Part shown: piece after piece, positions 31,442-50,179 of the stretch
How the letters are laid out: the number at the start of each line of letters is the position of its first letter
Numbering within the stretch: position 1 is the stretch's first letter
IMG/VR virus record: IMGVR_UViG_3300028888_000101
Coordinates: 19,476 to 83,475 of that record
Strand: one strand, 5' to 3'
Source of the DNA: a virus
Taxonomy: Duplodnaviria > Caudoviricetes
Length of the DNA: 64,000 nt
The notes under the pieces: model-generated
Seen by the model: the letters and a program-made list of their open reading frames with translations, nothing else
What the model was told of the DNA's origin: nothing
The model's database searches: none
Made by a program: the position numbers and the translations under genes

Positions 31442-31630
31442 TCACCAAGGGTCTTCATTCTTCCAATCACCCATAACTAAACTGATTCTTCCGTCATTGA
31501 GAACTTCAACACCATTGATATCCGCAAGATTCATTCGTAGTCCATTTATATCAATCACTACATCATGTAGTCCTAATCCGCTGTCGTGGATAATTGATTG
31601 TAATCTTGTAACTAATTCCTGACCTGTCAT
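31442..31630 (-). CDS. small hypothetical protein
   Basis: ATGA-type overlap with the primase stop. Confidence 0.55.
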   Translation of the reverse strand: MTGQELVTRLQSIIHDSGLGLHDVVIDINGLRMNLADINGVEVLNDGRISLVMGDWKNEDPW

Positions 31631-32580
31631 AATATATCCAACTCCTTTTTAATAATATTTACTTCTTCATAAGTTAATTCACCTGGGTCGTTTTTCGGGA
31701 CAACTTTACCTTTCTCAATCTTTGTAAATGGTTCGCAAATATTTACTACCTCAACTTCCATTCCAAGTGAGGCTAAGTTTCTTCCAAGGTGTCTTGCTTT
31801 CTCTTGAGCTTCATATTCATTATCAAAACAGATAAAAACCTTCTTGTAATGTTCCTTTAAGAATAATTCCTGTTCTCTAGTAACACTGGTACCTAAACTG
31901 CATACGCAATTTTGTCCCATTTTCATTACGTCAAAAGCACCTTCACAAATCATTACATAATCTTCAGTACTGTTATCAAGATTAAAGAAAATGTCTTTTG
32001 CAGCAATAACGCTGTTTTCAATATCAAGATTCTTATAACGAGGAATCTTGATACCCATAGCTTCATACTGTTTCAATTCTTCTTTACTGAGAATAGTTCT
32101 ACCAACCCAAGACACCAACACTCGTTTATAATAGATTGGTAAGATGATTCTATAAGACCATTCTCCTGTAATTCCACCACCACGAATATGAAACTTACTG
32201 ATTAAATAATTTATATCATATCCACGATTAATAAGATACTGTTTTTCCTGTTCGTTTAATTTGAATCCAGGTAAATTAAGATGTTCAGCTTGTGCTACTC
32301 GTTTTGTTTCTTTCTCAGGTGTGATGTAAGTATAATCTTTTACAAACTGAGAAATCTGGTTTGTAGGAATATTAAGTAACTTTGATAAAGCGTCATAATA
32401 ATTATGGCTACCACATCTCCAACAGTTATATCTTGGAGACAGATAATTAAAACCACCATTAAGGTGAGTATCAATTGGATTTACACAGAATGGGCAATCA
32501 ACATTAACCCACCCACGATTTATTGTAGTATCTGAACGTATATGTGCATTATCAAATATTCGTTTGAAATTAATTGCCAT
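31627..32580 (-). CDS. DNA primase (zinc-binding domain plus TOPRIM, DnaG-like)
   Basis: VDCPFC...H...YNCWRCG zinc finger; ICEGAFD, CSLGT and CFDNE TOPRIM motifs. Confidence 0.9.
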   Translation of the reverse strand: MAINFKRIFDNAHIRSDTTINRGWVNVDCPFCVNPIDTHLNGGFNYLSPRYNCWRCGSHNYYDALSKLLNIPTNQISQFVKDYTYITPEKETKRVAQAEHLNLPGFKLNEQEKQYLINRGYDINYLISKFHIRGGGITGEWSYRIILPIYYKRVLVSWVGRTILSKEELKQYEAMGIKIPRYKNLDIENSVIAAKDIFFNLDNSTEDYVMICEGAFDVMKMGQNCVCSLGTSVTREQELFLKEHYKKVFICFDNEYEAQEKARHLGRNLASLGMEVEVVNICEPFTKIEKGKVVPKNDPGELTYEEVNIIKKELDIL

Positions 32581-33316: not shown

Positions 33317-33598
33317 TTAAAATAAAGGTGCCATTCCAACTGAGGTATACATTTCATCTACAGACACACTGAGTCCTTCTTCCGCTTTAATTTTTGGTGC
33401 CTGTTCATTTATCAATAATAGAATCTTTTTAATTTCTGAATCAGTTTCATTTAAGATGTTACTGTTAAACTTATTGTGAAGATATCCCCAACAAACATTC
33501 CACAATGACTGTGTTTCATTCTTCTCATACTTTTGATTAATCTTGTTTAGTTTATCAAGCATATCTCGCTCTGATAAACTCAGCTCACACATTCTCAT
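33317..33598 (-). CDS. hypothetical protein
   Basis: GGGAG RBS; first ORF after the structured RNA. Confidence 0.55.
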   Translation of the reverse strand: MRMCELSLSERDMLDKLNKINQKYEKNETQSLWNVCWGYLHNKFNSNILNETDSEIKKILLLINEQAPKIKAEEGLSVSVDEMYTSVGMAPLF

Positions 33599-33614
33599 AC
33601 TATTGCTCCCAATA

Positions 33615-33831
33615 AAAAGTTTCGCCAGTAAGGGTGAAATTTCAAGAAAAAGACCTTACTGACTCGGTTGCCCTGTTCCGCTAGTGGTAATAGAAAGTTT
33701 CCAAAATATTACCACTAACTCGGTTTCCCTGTTTGCGAAGTTATCATTGTGGTCCCATCATAACTCGACTTCCTGTTCCGAGAACAGGCACTCAACCATC
33801 CCCATCAGGATAGAATCCGTGTCTAAACGGA
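33615..33831 (-). ncRNA. unidentified structured RNA: three conserved 18-20-nt repeats, each followed by a hairpin
   Basis: - strand repeats CGGAACAGGAAGTCGAGT (33763-33780), CGCAAACAGGGAAACCGAGT (33718-33737) and CGGAACAGGGCAACCGAGT (33662-33680); hairpins differ in sequence but keep pairing; final T-tract. Strand inferred from the tRNA and G-U pairs. Confidence 0.6.
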
Positions 33832-33905
33832 CTGGGTTGGTAGGATTCGAACCTTACGGAATGACGGTACCAAAAACCGTTGCCTTACCACTTGGCTACA
33901 ACCCA
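33832..33905 (-). tRNA. tRNA-Gln(UUG), no encoded CCA
   Basis: Cloverleaf: TGGGTTG/CAACCCA acceptor, GCC-AAGTGGTAA-GGC D-arm, ACGGT-TTTTGGT-ACCGT anticodon arm, GGTTCGAATCC T-arm. Confidence 0.92.
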
Positions 33906-33919
33906 ATTTATTATATTAA

Positions 33920-33930
33920 TAATATTAGAA
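33920..33930 (-). promoter_or_regulatory. TTCTAATATTA motif upstream of the tRNA (candidate phage promoter)
   Basis: Exact copies also at 13673 (-), 23684, 23926, 55428, 58064 and 60313 (+), each shortly upstream of a gene start. Confidence 0.55.
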
Positions 33931-35271: not shown

Positions 35272-36333
35272 TTATATCGTTCTACCTTTATAATATCCTA
35301 CAGGACATTCTTTAGCCTGAATGTTGTGAACACCGTCTGTATACCAATGCTTTCCGAGAGCACTTAGATTCTTTCTAGCATTTATTTTCCCTGGTCTATA
35401 ACCTTCAGGACATTCAGCACCACGATAATTTACTACACCATTTGTAAACCATTTCATATTTGTTTTATCATGTTCTTTTCCACGATGTGCATCAGCAGCT
35501 TTTTTAATCCATTCTTCTGTATGAATTACTTTTTTACAGCTTTCAGACATTCTGCGTTTGTACTCTTCATCATGAACCGTTCCTCTATTAGCATCTCCAA
35601 TTTTCTTTTTGGTTTCTTCAGAAAGATGAGTACCACGTCTAGTCTCATATTGTGCCTGATGTGCTGCATATTCTTCTTCAGAATATTTTCTACCCTTCAA
35701 CCTGTCTGACATAGCCTGTCTAGCCTCAGGATGTTCCACATAATGTCTTTTAATACCCTCAGAGACTTTCTGAATATATTCTGGATTCTTACAAAGTTCT
35801 GTCATTCTCTGTGACATACCCTCACGCACTTCAGGATGGTCGTTATAATACTGTTTCATATATTCTGAATGTTCCTGCTTACGTTCAGGATGTTCAGCAT
35901 AATGTTTATTCATGCGTTCAGAAACCTTTTGACGTTCTTCAGGGTCTTCGTAACGTTTCTTCATACGGTTGGATATTTCCTGTTTTGCCTCAGGATGGTT
36001 CTTATAGTATTCTTTAAGAGCCTCTGAATTATTACGATATTTCTTGACAAATTTCTTGATATACTCACGTCTTGATTTAACAGAAACATGAACTTTTGTA
36101 TGTTCAGAATCAGTTAAAAATATTAATTCTGAAGCAGGTCTATGATAATATAAGTTATGTTCGATTAAATATTTCCTTGATAATTCTTTAGTTCTTAAAT
36201 CTCCATTTTCATCATGCGTTTCTAGTCTATGATGACAATGCCATGTTCTATTTTCATCTTTTACGCAATCATCATAATTTTCAATTAAATTTAAATCATC
36301 TTTACAAAATGCATAAGCGTTTACAGAATACAT
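35272..36333 (-). CDS. HNH-type homing endonuclease-like protein with NUMOD3-like segments
   Basis: WHCHHRLETH domain; HPE.R..MS helical repeats; HLSEETKKKIG NUMOD3-like motif; WFTNG/WYTDG repeats; TTTACA-N17-TATAAA promoter at ~36361-36398. Confidence 0.75.
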   Translation of the reverse strand: MYSVNAYAFCKDDLNLIENYDDCVKDENRTWHCHHRLETHDENGDLRTKELSRKYLIEHNLYYHRPASELIFLTDSEHTKVHVSVKSRREYIKKFVKKYRNNSEALKEYYKNHPEAKQEISNRMKKRYEDPEERQKVSERMNKHYAEHPERKQEHSEYMKQYYNDHPEVREGMSQRMTELCKNPEYIQKVSEGIKRHYVEHPEARQAMSDRLKGRKYSEEEYAAHQAQYETRRGTHLSEETKKKIGDANRGTVHDEEYKRRMSESCKKVIHTEEWIKKAADAHRGKEHDKTNMKWFTNGVVNYRGAECPEGYRPGKINARKNLSALGKHWYTDGVHNIQAKECPVGYYKGRTI

Positions 36334-49063: not shown

Positions 49064-50179
49064 ATGGAAGTTGTAGATAAGAGTAAAATTCAAGAGTATG
49101 CAAAAAGAAATACCTCACCTAAAATGCCGATTGAGGCTAAGTATGTTGAGGCATTTCTTGACTCACTTATGAACTCTTCAAAGATTCAAGATGCTTACAC
49201 CATTCTCAGAGACGAAATGCAAAATGGTGATGCGTTTGTTATTTACAACTCGTTCTTCCCTACAGCTGTAAACTTGAACCGTGAACCTTACCGTTCTATT
49301 ATTGCATATTCAATGCTCAAGAAAGATAAACGATTGTTTGAATTGATATCTTCATCACTATTTACAGGAAGTGTTATTGAGTATCATGGTACAGACCTTT
49401 ATACTGATATTTCACATTACACTGATGAAACACCTTTAAGAGAAACTGACCACGGTATCTATACCGATATGCAGTCAGGTATCATTCAGATGGCATTTAA
49501 GAACTATTACTGTAATGACCCTTTGCCTGACGGAACAGGAAGTGAGTATCAGACAACTGAAGAGATAGAAAAGGCAGATAGTGACTTTACATATATCATT
49601 ACTCTTACCAAACCGGCACGTATACAGGTTCTTGAGTTCTATGTTCCTTGGTGTTTTATGACAGGTACTGTAGATACTTTACAGACTTGTGGTATTGATA
49701 TTACCGACCCTTATTTCAGTACACCATTCAAAGATGAGATGTCTATGAATATCTTGTCTAATATGAATACTTCAGAACTTATAACCTGTTACAGGGTTGT
49801 CTCAATGATAATTTATCATTATGAGGAAGGTGAATACGTTTCAACTGATAGACCTATTGATGTTGAACGAGAAGTAACAATAACCGATTCTTATGTTTTG
49901 TTTGATTACAACCTAAGAACATTGGCGTCTTCAAGTTCTTCAAGTTCTACAGAAAAAGATTTGATTTGGGGTGAAATTACTTTCAAATCTAACGCTGGCG
50001 GTGAAATATACGCTACAGCTGATACATACAAACCAGAGGAAAAGTATTTCGAGAAATATACACCTATAATGCTGCGACTGTTTGATAATGACCCTGACGG
50101 TCCGTGCATTGCATTTGAGATACAGAATGATGTCTGTACTAAAGGTGCAATGTTCTATCTTATGGAAGCAGCTGACTAA
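49064..50179 (+). CDS. putative baseplate wedge protein
   Basis: Directly after the gp6-like gene; positional. Confidence 0.45.
   Translation: MEVVDKSKIQEYAKRNTSPKMPIEAKYVEAFLDSLMNSSKIQDAYTILRDEMQNGDAFVIYNSFFPTAVNLNREPYRSIIAYSMLKKDKRLFELISSSLFTGSVIEYHGTDLYTDISHYTDETPLRETDHGIYTDMQSGIIQMAFKNYYCNDPLPDGTGSEYQTTEEIEKADSDFTYIITLTKPARIQVLEFYVPWCFMTGTVDTLQTCGIDITDPYFSTPFKDEMSMNILSNMNTSELITCYRVVSMIIYHYEEGEYVSTDRPIDVEREVTITDSYVLFDYNLRTLASSSSSSSTEKDLIWGEITFKSNAGGEIYATADTYKPEEKYFEKYTPIMLRLFDNDPDGPCIAFEIQNDVCTKGAMFYLMEAAD

What the first reader, a model, noticed from the sequence alone, without database searches (positions are those of the whole stretch)
33615..33831. Unrecognised tRNA-linked RNA: three conserved repeats separated by hairpins, plus one anti-repeat
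Seen: directly 3' of tRNA-Gln on the - strand lies ~220 nt of highly ordered DNA with no credible - strand ORF. Three repeats with consensus CG(G/C)AACAGG(G/A)nAnnCGAGT (33763-33780, 33718-33737, 33662-33680) are each followed by a hairpin. The stems differ in sequence but keep pairing (AGTTAT/ATAACT; TAGTGGTAATA/TATTACCACTA; CAGTAAGG/CCTTACTG), which resembles covariation. Hairpins 2 and 3 share a closing geometry (CG-AG bulge-U.G) and a loop of poly-U plus GAAA(C)UUUC. A single CCUGUUC (33782-33788) just upstream is complementary to the repeat core (G/A)AACAGG, so it can pair with only one repeat at a time. The last hairpin runs into a U-tract just before the operon that ends in the primase. 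Inference: either a multivalent protein-decoy RNA (ACAGGA/ACAGGGA resemble CsrA/RsmA GGA sites, as in CsrB) cut out of the tRNA transcript, or a switchable leader controlling read-through into the primase operon. I cannot match it to a CRISPR array, riboswitch or ribozyme I know.
Basis: partly seen in the sequence, partly recalled or inferred. Interest (0 to 1): 0.85.

Follow-up and report, generated by a model that had tools for sequence, protein, structure and literature searches.

The report
Phage RNA copying a ribosomal-RNA junction
Directly behind its tRNA-Gln gene this uncultured phage encodes a conserved folded RNA whose repeated core matches, letter for letter, two small neighbouring hairpins of bacterial 23S ribosomal RNA (helices 29 and 31), so it is probably a decoy or docking site for a ribosomal protein, not a CsrA sponge or an RNA switch.

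Summary
At 33614-33831 (- strand), between tRNA-Gln and the first gene of the primase operon, there are three repeats, each followed by a different hairpin, and no ORF or Rfam match.

Thirteen sequence variants from independent assemblies keep the element. Hairpin sequences change but pairing holds: 97.9% of cells paired, and 8 of 12 pairs changed on both sides.

The invariant core is A-[GG-GNRA-CC]-G-[AGU...GCG]. This is identical to 23S rRNA helix 29, G636 and the lowest three pairs of helix 31. In the ribosome that module packs along the groove and is touched by protein bL35, near uL15 and bL33, with uL4 on the adjoining helices. The phage variants also use both natural forms of helix 29 (GG/CC and GC/GC).

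Best reading: a tRNA-linked rRNA mimic, in one or two copies, that binds a free large-subunit protein. No binding, transcription or effect has been shown.

The CsrA-site and anti-repeat-switch ideas fail in relatives. One distant phage carries the element in front of tRNA-Asn and not before an ORF, which favours a processed stable RNA.

Earlier notes of this scan, unchecked here, report phage copies of other 23S pieces (uL11 site, L1 stalk, H13) on other DNA. None reports this one.

The parts
33920..33930 (-). Phage promoter-like motif TTCTAATATTA, about 13 nt upstream of the tRNA
   Evidence: Nine exact copies in the window, and 27 matches with up to one mismatch against 11.1 expected. The same motif precedes the element in relatives and in L276. 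Its function as a promoter is inferred.
33829..33906 (-). tRNA-Gln (UUG), no encoded CCA
   Evidence: ARAGORN. Rfam RF00005, 56.3 bits.
33816..33831 (-). Trailer hairpin UCCGU-UUAGAC-ACGGA directly 3' of the tRNA
   Evidence: Relatives have a different hairpin at the same place: CUUAUGU/ACAUAAG, CACUUA/UAAGUG, AUCAUCA/UGGUGAU.
33794..33803 (-). Conserved G-rich segment GGGGAUGGUU (GGGAAGGUU in most relatives). Candidate 5' strand of a closing helix (tentative).
   Evidence: Conserved in all variants. RNAalifold and single-sequence MFE pair it with the U-run in 1- and 2-unit variants. There is no covariation, and the helix is not predicted in L276.
33772..33788 (-). It stands where H28 stands in 23S rRNA.
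   Evidence: It covaries in relatives (CUGUAC/GUACAG, CUGUAU/AUACAG). The loop motif YCGGA is conserved.
33735..33769 (-). Accessory hairpin hp1: GUCGAGUUAU...AUAACUUCGC. The GAGU of repeat 1 pairs with ACUU. Absent from 1-unit relatives.
   Evidence: The innermost predicted pair varies G-C, U-A and A-U. The hairpin is missing in L119, L131, L262, L122 and L276.
33679..33730 (-). H29/H31-like unit A: A-[GG-GAAA-CC]-G-[AGU-UAGUGGUAAUA-loop-UAUUACCACUA-GCG]
   Evidence: Matches the rRNA-derived descriptor. Identical to 23S H29 + G636 + the H31 base.
33623..33674 (-). H29/H31-like unit B: A-[GG-GCAA-CC]-G-[AGU-CAGUAAGG-loop-CCUUACUG-GCG]. GCAA is still a GNRA loop.
   Evidence: (69.4 bits).
33606..33622 (-). 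AAAC-UUUUU-AUU-GGGAG: U-run (33614-33618) and the Shine-Dalgarno sequence (33606-33610) of the first ORF
   Evidence: Not called as a terminator. The U-run is absent in L123 and L276.
33317..33598 (-). 93-aa ORF of unknown family, first gene of the operon that ends with the Toprim primase (31627-32580)
   Evidence: It has 78 homologue clusters. The ORF is also present in relatives that lack both tRNA and element.

Best explanation
The stretch encodes a structured non-coding RNA made on one transcript with a phage tRNA. It imitates a small, universally conserved piece of the large-subunit rRNA.

Each functional unit is A-[GG-GNRA-CC]-G-[AGU-variable stem-loop-GCG]. That corresponds to 23S helix 29 (E. 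coli 628-635), G636, and the three lowest pairs of helix 31 (A637.G651, G638-C650, U639.G649). A hairpin three nucleotides upstream stands where helix 28 stands.

In the ribosome, H29 and H31 pack side by side in an along-groove packing motif. Its central pairs are the Watson-Crick pair 629-634 and the G.U pair 639-649. Nucleotides 650-651 are held by protein bL35. uL15 and bL33 lie next to it, and uL4 sits on the adjoining H27/H28.

I propose that the phage RNA folds into the same module and captures a free host large-subunit protein, most likely bL35 or uL15, less likely uL4. The window phage has two such units, most relatives one. tRNA-processing enzymes probably release the RNA.

The RNA would then act as a decoy, changing the pool of free ribosomal protein. 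Where it abuts the ribosome-binding site of the replication operon, it could also tie that operon's translation or stability to the same pool.

Shown: the sequence, its conservation, the covariation, and the identity with rRNA.
Inferred: transcription, processing, the 3D fold, protein binding, and any effect.
For: 1. Conservation with compensatory change. Across 16 units from 13 variants, 97.9% of cells pair, against 80.3% in shuffles and 29-47% with slid partners. Eight of 12 pairs change on both sides (also 69).

2. Strand specificity. The U.G pair is invariant, and other G.U pairs occur in the stems. This points to RNA, not duplex DNA.

3. Identity with rRNA. Most show the 23S context, and five sampled loci were confirmed inside 23S genes by Rfam. 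The Rfam LSU alignment shows the segment is a 2-bp GNRA hairpin, then G, then a hairpin whose base is (A/C).G, G-C, U.G.

4. The phage uses both natural H29 forms: GG/CC in 14 units and GC/GC in 2 (L122, L276). The same sites read AGCGAAAGCGAGUC... in Lysinibacillus and Brevibacterium genomes and AGGGAAACCGAGU... in Shewanella. The tetraloop varies only within GNRA (GAAA, GCAA).

5. A descriptor written from the rRNA consensus hits exactly the two units in the 83-kb genome. The mean over 300 dinucleotide shuffles was 0.007, and no shuffle gave two hits.

6. In blastn-short against four rRNA operons, H29/H31 is the best match in 7 of 8 phage queries. The exception, L122, carries the GC/GC form.

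7. Literature. H29-H31 form packing motif L639 with central pairs 629-634 and 639-649, and nts 650-651 contact L35 (PMC2879513). H29/H31 shift when uL15, bL33 and bL35 are absent (bioRxiv 10.1101/2022.03.10.483802). uL4 density appears together with H27-31 (PMC9935924).

8. The element always travels with a tRNA. It is 3' of tRNA-Gln in 12 variants and 5' of tRNA-Asn in L276, behind the same promoter motif.

9. Relatives without the tRNA also lack the element.
Against: - The similarity to rRNA covers only about 19 nucleotides and was recognised after the fact.
- The Rfam LSU model does not score the phage RNA.
- The model built from phage units gave no recognisable 23S hit in five unselected bacterial genomes. 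The hits were chance pattern matches and unrelated short hairpins, at E of 0.02 to 8.
- The upper part and loop of H31, the sequence of H28 and that of H27 are not copied.
- The 2-bp H29-like hairpin has almost no thermodynamic weight and is supported by a single covarying pair.
- The proposed closing helix has no covariation and is not predicted in L276.
- bL35 contacts only the backbone in the ribosome and is a late, weak binder, so binding to an isolated module is uncertain.
- No expression data could be obtained.
- The host is unknown, so the mimic cannot be compared with its own 23S rRNA.
Confidence: 0.5

Rival explanations
1. A self-contained folding module with no ribosomal ligand. The phage uses a compact two-helix packing motif purely as a structure. 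It could shield the 5' end of the operon mRNA from 5'-dependent RNases after the tRNA is cut off, or act as an insulator or processing spacer between stable RNAs. The likeness to H29/H31 would then be convergence on a good fold.
For: - The element sits exactly at tRNA-mRNA or tRNA-tRNA junctions.
- A variable hairpin also follows the tRNA in every variant.
- Along-groove packing motifs recur in unrelated RNA contexts (PMC2879513).
- The stems are long and stable, while the loops are free to vary.
Against: - A generic packing motif tolerates many sequences; the selection experiments in PMC2879513 recovered many functional variants.
- The phage nevertheless keeps all 13 invariant core positions of the rRNA form across two lineages and two paralogous copies. 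These include the unpaired A, the linker G and the A.G pair.
- The phage uses exactly the two natural rRNA variants of H29.
Confidence: 0.2
2. A cis-acting attenuator or translational operator of the replication operon, working like bacterial r-protein leaders. Folding of the domain, with or without a bound protein, would occlude the U-run and Shine-Dalgarno region or promote termination at the last hairpin. This would set the expression of the 93-aa gene through to the primase.
For: - In 12 variants the element ends 4-15 nt before the Shine-Dalgarno sequence.
- RNAalifold and MFE folds pair the conserved GGGAAGG segment with the U-run, and in some variants an upstream UCCU with the AGGA of the Shine-Dalgarno sequence.
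- L122 and L046 carry terminator-like hairpins followed by U-runs just before the Shine-Dalgarno sequence.
- uL4 is known to act in this way on the S10 leader (PMC10931766).
Against: - In L276 the same element precedes tRNA-Asn, and no ORF follows directly.
- L123 has no U-run.
- No terminator is called in the window.
- The closing helix shows no compensatory change.
- No r-protein gene is regulated, since the downstream genes are replication genes.
Confidence: 0.15
3. One reading: a CsrA/RsmA sponge with GGA sites, or a switch in which one CCUGUUC pairs alternately with the three repeats.
For: ACAGGA and ACAGGGA occur in the window copy. CCUGUUC is complementary to the GAACAGG of repeats 1 and 3, and partly complementary to repeat 2.
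Against: - GGA is absent from unit B (GGGCAA) and from both GC/GC lineages.
- The Gs form a stem that covaries.
- The AACAGG part is not conserved in relatives (AAUAGG, UUAGGG, GUAAGG, GUGAGC).
- Hairpin 0 covaries as a fixed local hairpin.
- One-unit variants offer no alternative partner.
Confidence: 0.03
4. A DNA-level element: iterons, a replication origin, or single-strand priming signals next to the primase operon. A repeat array of the CRISPR or type III antitoxin kind falls under the same heading.
For: Three direct repeats lie upstream of a primase operon, and the hairpins could form in single-stranded DNA.
Against: - The unit number varies from 1 to 3 and the spacing is irregular (45 and 56 nt).
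- The structure depends on invariant G.U pairs, which become A-C mismatches on the other strand.
- The element moves together with tRNAs, not with the primase (L276).
- The repeats are about 19 nt, and the 'spacers' are self-complementary.
- No cas gene, no toxin gene and no identical repeats were seen.
Confidence: 0.03

Closest known systems
23S rRNA helices H29 and H31 (domain II, E. coli nt 627-651; Rfam RF02541 model positions about 669-694), the along-groove packing motif 'L639'
   Same: A627, G628-C635, the 629-634 pair in both natural forms (G-C or C-G), the GNRA loop, linker G636, A637.G651, G638-C650 and U639.G649 are identical. The 3-nt linker from a preceding hairpin also ends in A.
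   Different: - The upper two pairs and the pentaloop of H31 are replaced by 7-11 further variable pairs and a 12-34-nt loop.
- The hairpin in the place of H28 has an unrelated sequence and its own conserved loop, YCGGA.
- A closing helix like H27 is only predicted, not proven.
- The module is free-standing, repeated, and phage-encoded.
Bacterial ribosomal-protein autoregulatory leaders that mimic rRNA binding sites (the L1, L10, L20, S8 and S15 leaders, and the uL4-S10 leader)
   Same: A short mRNA-borne or leader RNA that reproduces the conserved nucleotides of an rRNA protein site. In most variants it lies next to a ribosome-binding site.
   Different: - No ribosomal-protein gene lies downstream.
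- The element is encoded by a phage, fused to a tRNA, and present in tandem.
- In L276 it is not in front of any ORF.
- I found no leader that mimics H29/H31. No Rfam family matches.
Phage tRNA-linked mimics of other 23S pieces noted earlier in this scan (GTPase centre/uL11 site, L1-stalk head, H13). These are AI notes and are unchecked.
   Same: Small phage RNAs placed among or beside tRNA genes that copy a conserved, protein-binding part of 23S rRNA.
   Different: They copy a different rRNA region and occur in different phages. I did not verify those reports. None concerns H29-H31.
CsrB/RsmZ-type protein sponges
   Same: Repeated protein-site modules on one small RNA. The working principle could be alike.
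   Different: The defining GGA-in-loop sites are absent. See the membership test.
ROOL and GOLLD large RNAs of phages and prophages
   Same: Structured non-coding RNAs of unknown function, often beside tRNA genes in phage genomes.
   Different: No Rfam match to either family. This element is 110-230 nt, not 500-800 nt.

Membership tests
rRNA-mimic binding site for a large-subunit protein (H29/H31 module) | Reproduces the conserved nucleotides and pairing of the rRNA site | tested here: met
   13 invariant core positions plus one covarying pair match the 23S consensus and structure line. The rRNA-derived descriptor hits only the two units; 300 shuffles gave a mean of 0.007.
rRNA-mimic binding site for a large-subunit protein (H29/H31 module) | Adopts the same 3D packing (G.U pair against Watson-Crick pair, 1-nt linker) | not testable with these tools
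   The sequence requirements are met: invariant U.G, a G-C or C-G partner pair, and a single G linker (PMC2879513). No RNA 3D prediction or probing was available.
rRNA-mimic binding site for a large-subunit protein (H29/H31 module) | Binds the ribosomal protein (bL35, uL15, bL33 or uL4) | not testable with these tools
   No binding data. The 83-kb phage record encodes no L35, L4 or L15 homologue of its own, so any ligand would come from the host.
Autoregulatory r-protein leader | Lies in the leader of the operon that encodes the bound protein | tested here: not met
   The downstream genes are a 93-aa protein, two small ORFs and a Toprim primase. No r-protein domains were found. In L276 a tRNA follows.
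CsrA/RsmA sponge (CsrB, RsmZ type) | Several A(N)GGA motifs exposed in hairpin loops or single strands, conserved in homologues | tested here: not met
   The Gs are in a covarying stem. GGA is lacking in unit B and in L122 and L276.
CRISPR array or RNA anti-CRISPR repeat | Near-identical repeats of 23 nt or more, separated by unique non-palindromic spacers | tested here: not met
   The conserved part is about 19 nt. The intervening sequences are hairpins. The unit number is 1-3.
Type III antitoxin (ToxI-like) | Tandem identical repeats immediately upstream of an endoribonuclease toxin gene | tested here: not met
   The repeats are not identical. The downstream 93-aa ORF has no family match and also occurs without the element.
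Intrinsic terminator or attenuator | G+C-rich stem directly followed by a U-tract | tested here: inconclusive
   No site was called on the - strand. The U-run starts 4 nt after the stem in the window. Clearer terminator-like hairpins occur in L122 and L046.
Any Rfam 15 family | Score at or above the family's gathering threshold | tested here: not met
   Only the tRNA is found. The best other match is RsaA, on the opposite strand, at 15 bits and E = 5.6.

The most novel reading that the evidence does not exclude
Phages of this group make a multivalent decoy of the H29/H31 protein site, released from tRNA precursors. The decoy would titrate a free large-subunit protein (bL35, uL15 or uL4) and so reprogram host ribosome assembly or the feedback control of r-protein operons during infection. 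Together with the uL11-site, L1-stalk and H13 copies noted elsewhere in this scan, it would belong to an undescribed class of phage 'ribosome-part' RNAs.
Probability: 0.25. Interest if true: 0.85.

Novelty: new variant of a known kind. Interest (0 to 1): 0.68.

Why it matters
Mimicry of rRNA by mRNA leaders is the classic way in which bacteria balance ribosomal-protein synthesis. A phage-encoded, tRNA-linked, tandem copy of an rRNA protein site would show that viruses use the same trick against, or with, the host's ribosome-building machinery.

No mimic of this site is known to me, and the protein involved (bL35) has no described extra-ribosomal role that I know of.

The case is directly testable, because the RNA is short. 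It has invariant nucleotides with clear predictions: the U.G pair, the GNRA loop and the G-C/C-G swap. It also comes in natural 1-, 2- and 3-hairpin versions.

If the other rRNA-piece copies noted by this scan hold up, this adds a fourth region. It would suggest a general strategy of phages that carry tRNA genes.

Tried and rejected
- **Rfam.** Gathering and E <= 10 searches on the window, on six relatives and on short loci found nothing but tRNAs.
- **Exact-pattern scans of IMG/VR.** AACAGGGNAACCGAGT gave 40 single, unclustered chance hits. CGCAAAYAGGGAAACCGAGTT gave none. The GG/CC unit pattern gave five matches with no evident hairpin between the motifs. The GC/GC pattern gave 18 hits, of which only L276 is real.
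- **Metagenome scan with an 18-mer.** 65 hits, of which only L074, a near-identical copy, is real.
- **Primase-based search for relatives.** Only 27-29% identical proteins, with no tRNA or element nearby.
- **Search with the 93-aa protein in IMG/VR.** Nothing.
- **Phage-unit covariance model on five whole bacterial genomes.** The top hits were the chance pattern matches that had brought those genomes in. No recognisable 23S hit was listed, so this test of mimicry was uninformative.
- **Host assignment.** Primase relatives in isolated phages are too distant to help.
- **13-nt identity between repeat 1 and a coding sequence at 49531-49543 (+).** Judged to be chance.
- **Hammerhead, c-di-GMP riboswitch and pistol resemblances.** These came from memory only and have no Rfam support.
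- **The closing helix** is kept as tentative only.
Full report
**1. What is there**

The window belongs to an IMG/VR virus record of 83,475 bp with 34.5% G+C, estimated to be 59% complete. Full-length relatives are 140-145 kb.

On the - strand, a promoter-like motif TTCTAATATTA lies at 33920-33930. It has nine exact copies in the window. It is followed by these features:
- tRNA-Gln(UUG) at 33829-33906
- a small trailer hairpin at 33816-33831
- a conserved G-rich segment at 33794-33803
- hairpin 0, CCUGUUC-UCG-GAACAGG, at 33772-33788
- an accessory hairpin at 33735-33769
- two units of identical design at 33679-33730 and 33623-33674
- a U-run at 33614-33618 and the Shine-Dalgarno sequence GGGAG
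- the ATG of a 93-aa ORF (33317-33598), which opens an operon ending in a Toprim primase (31627-32580)

The repeat motif occurs nowhere else in the 83-kb record. No - strand ORF covers the stretch. Rfam finds only the tRNA.

**2. Relatives**

The downstream 93-aa protein has 78 homologue clusters, from 98% down to about 50% identity. I fetched their contigs.

In the clade at 80% identity or more, tRNA-Gln and the element are always present together. In the clades at 70% and 53% identity, the same gene is preceded by only 72-140 nt that hold the promoter motif and the Shine-Dalgarno sequence. Those clades have no tRNA and no element. The tRNA and element are therefore a cassette inserted between promoter and ribosome-binding site.

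A pattern scan of IMG/VR found one more carrier, L276, a 48-kb record that is only distantly related. There the element stands behind the same promoter motif but in front of tRNA-Asn, and no ORF follows directly.

In all there are 13 distinct sequence variants from more than 20 independent assemblies. The number of hairpins after hairpin 0 varies:
- one in L119, L131, L262, L122 and L276
- two in L120, L124, L127 and L132
- three in the window and L045

L046, L123 and L260 carry further unrelated RNA modules.

**3. Structure and covariation**

I aligned 16 units. The columns A, G, G(N)AA, C, G, A, G, U and G, C, G are invariant. Between AGU and GCG lies a stem whose sequence differs in almost every variant.

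On the structure ....((....))..((((((((((...)))))))))).....:
- 97.9% of cells pair, against 80.3% in shuffles and 29-47% when the partners are slid.
- Eight of 12 pairs show changes on both sides.
- The covariation score is 0.587, against 0.220 in shuffles (0 of 500 shuffles reach it) (first run).
- The U.G pair at the hairpin base never changes.
- The inner pair of the mini-hairpin is G-C in 14 units and C-G in 2.

Hairpin 0 also covaries: CCUGUU(C)/(G)AACAGG, CUGUAC/GUACAG, CUGUAC/GUAUAG, CUGUAU/AUACAG and ACUGUAU/AUACAGU. It keeps a loop motif YCGGA.

The many G.U pairs make the structure specific to this strand. That points to RNA and not to a duplex DNA site.

**4. Identity with 23S rRNA**

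To look for the unit elsewhere, I scanned one genome per prokaryotic species with AGGGAAACCGAGU-N(15-45)-GCGAAA. Most lie in the same sequence context in Planctomycetota, Holophagae, Fusobacteriota, Ureaplasma, SAR86, Fibrobacter and others. Rfam placed five sampled loci inside the large-subunit rRNA gene.

The Rfam LSU alignment of that segment has the consensus ...GuA [Gc GAAA gC] G [cGucc gAAuA gggCg].... This is a 2-bp hairpin capped by GAAA, one G, and then a 5-bp hairpin.

In E. coli numbering, fixed by the positions given in PMC2879513, these are H29 (628-635), G636 and H31 (637-651). The phage unit A-[GG-GNRA-CC]-G-[AGU...GCG] therefore equals A627, H29, G636 and the three lowest pairs of H31: A637.G651, G638-C650 and U639.G649.

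The 3' GCGAAA of my search pattern matched a different, more distant rRNA segment by accident. The true counterpart of the phage GCG is 649-651.

Four points argue against coincidence:

1. The phage's rare variant AGCGAAAGCGAGU (L122, L276) is the other natural form of H29. It is the Rfam consensus, and it is found at that site in Lysinibacillus and Brevibacterium genomes, whereas Shewanella has the GG/CC form.
2. The only change inside the loop, GAAA to GCAA in unit B, stays within GNRA.
3. A descriptor written from the rRNA consensus (AG-x-GNRA-x'-CG-N-GU, then a hairpin of at least 4 bp closed by G-C) hits exactly the two units in the phage genome. The mean over 300 dinucleotide shuffles was 0.007, and no shuffle gave two hits.
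4. In a blastn-short comparison of eight phage intergenic regions with four rRNA operons, H29/H31 is the top match in seven. The exception is L122, which carries the GC/GC form.

The context is also alike. In rRNA the order is H28, a 3-nt linker ending in A, H29, G, H31. In the phage it is hairpin 0, UAA or UGA, the mini-hairpin, G, the long hairpin.

In one-unit variants, RNAalifold and plain MFE folding add a G.U-rich helix between GGGAAGG(UU) and (AA)UCUUUUU that closes all three hairpins, as H27 does in rRNA. This helix has no compensatory changes, and it is missing from the fold of L276. I keep it as tentative.

**5. What the rRNA module does**

According to PMC2879513:
- H29 and H31 form an along-groove packing motif ('L639') whose central pairs are 629-634 (Watson-Crick) and 639-649 (G.U).
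- The backbone of 650-651 is held by T16 and G17 of protein L35.
- The neighbouring H27-H28 motif holds L4.

A cryo-EM study of salt-washed 50S particles reports that H29 and H31 leave their native position when uL15, bL33 and bL35 are absent. Another cryo-EM study reports that uL4 density appears together with H27-31.

The phage keeps precisely the nucleotides that build this packing motif and the L35 contact. It discards the rest of H31. The phage record itself has no L35, L4 or L15 gene.

**6. Most likely mechanism**

I read the element as a tRNA-linked RNA that imitates the H29/H31 module and captures a free host large-subunit protein. bL35 or uL15 is the most likely ligand, and uL4 is less likely.

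The RNA would be freed by the enzymes that trim the adjoining tRNA: RNase P in L276, and 3' trimming in the window. It would act as a decoy, with one or two sites per molecule.

In the 12 variants where it abuts the Shine-Dalgarno sequence of the replication operon, it may also couple that operon's translation or mRNA stability to the protein pool. uL4 does this for the S10 operon (PMC10931766).

Only the sequence, conservation, covariation and rRNA identity are shown. Transcription, processing, fold, binding and effect are inferred. I put 0.5 on 'rRNA mimic that binds a ribosomal protein'. My odds are higher, about 0.65, that the likeness to H29/H31 is not accidental, and about 0.9 that this is a functional structured RNA.

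**7. Rivals**

- **A ligand-free structural module (0.2).** It could act as a 5' stabiliser or a spacer between stable RNAs. This fits the position at tRNA junctions but does not explain why every rRNA-type nucleotide is kept.
- **A purely cis-acting attenuator or operator (0.15).** It fits the adjacency to the Shine-Dalgarno sequence and some terminator-like hairpins in relatives. It is weakened by L276 and L123 and by the absence of a called terminator.
- **The CsrA-sponge and anti-repeat-switch models.** These fail on comparison with relatives (section 3).
- **DNA-level readings and CRISPR- or ToxI-like arrays.** These fail on strand-specific G.U pairs, the variable unit number, and the lack of associated genes.

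**8. Novelty**

I found no Rfam family and no paper describing a phage-encoded mimic of this or any 23S protein site. The library holds mostly openly licensed papers and preprints, so the search is limited.

Earlier notes of this scan report, on other phage genomes, tRNA-linked copies of the GTPase centre (uL11 site), the L1-stalk head and H13. I did not verify them. None concerns H29-H31.

I class the element as a new variant of a known kind: rRNA mimicry for a ribosomal protein, here phage-borne, tRNA-fused and tandem.

Noticed in passing
L046:2377-2497, L120:1128-1252, L262:680-800 (relatives; absent from the window): A conserved structured RNA of about 105-120 nt lies between the promoter and tRNA-Gln in some relatives. 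It has a closing helix GGUGGAG/CUCCAC, and 5 of 23 predicted pairs show compensatory changes among three sequences. No Rfam match.
   Followed up: partly
L123:912-987: ARAGORN calls a second tRNA-like gene directly 3' of the element, with a four-letter anticodon (gagt) in an enlarged loop. It takes the place of the U-run.
   Followed up: no
L046:2738-2870 and L260:91-235: A conserved 3' extension of about 140 nt lies between the H31-like hairpin and the Shine-Dalgarno sequence. It ends in the hairpin GGAG-UGCAA-CUCUCC followed by a U-run. The only Rfam hint is a weak one (Tymo_tRNA-like, 19.8 bits, E = 0.09).
   Followed up: no
L276:2273-2400: After tRNA-Asn comes another non-coding stretch that ends in a T-arm-like GGUUCAACUCC and an acceptor-like tail. 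ARAGORN does not call it. It may be a degenerate or interrupted tRNA-like RNA.
   Followed up: no
window, e.g. 3176, 13673, 23684, 23926, 33920, 55428, 58064, 60313: The 11-mer TTCTAATATTA (or TTCTATTATTA) occurs nine times exactly, and 27 times with up to one mismatch against 11 expected. It precedes the tRNA cassette here and in relatives, so it is probably a phage-specific promoter element.
   Followed up: partly
window 49531-49547 (+): The coding sequence of a 371-aa ORF contains CGGAACAGGAAGTGAGT. The first 13 letters are identical to repeat 1 and 17 of 18 positions match. I judged this to be chance (about 0.5 expected).
   Followed up: partly
window 35272-36333 (-): A 353-aa ORF carries a NUMOD3 motif and matches homing-endonuclease PHROGs. 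Relatives carry GIY-YIG/NUMOD3 and resolvase genes at varying places around this locus, so the region is a hot spot for mobile insertions.
   Followed up: no
P4 loops of L046, L119, L122, L276: Four otherwise different hairpin loops share a motif (U)CCUCC(C)UAAAGC or CCUAAGCG. In L046 and L122 it is complementary to the UUAGGAG ribosome-binding region downstream. The other variants have U/A-rich loops instead.
   Followed up: no
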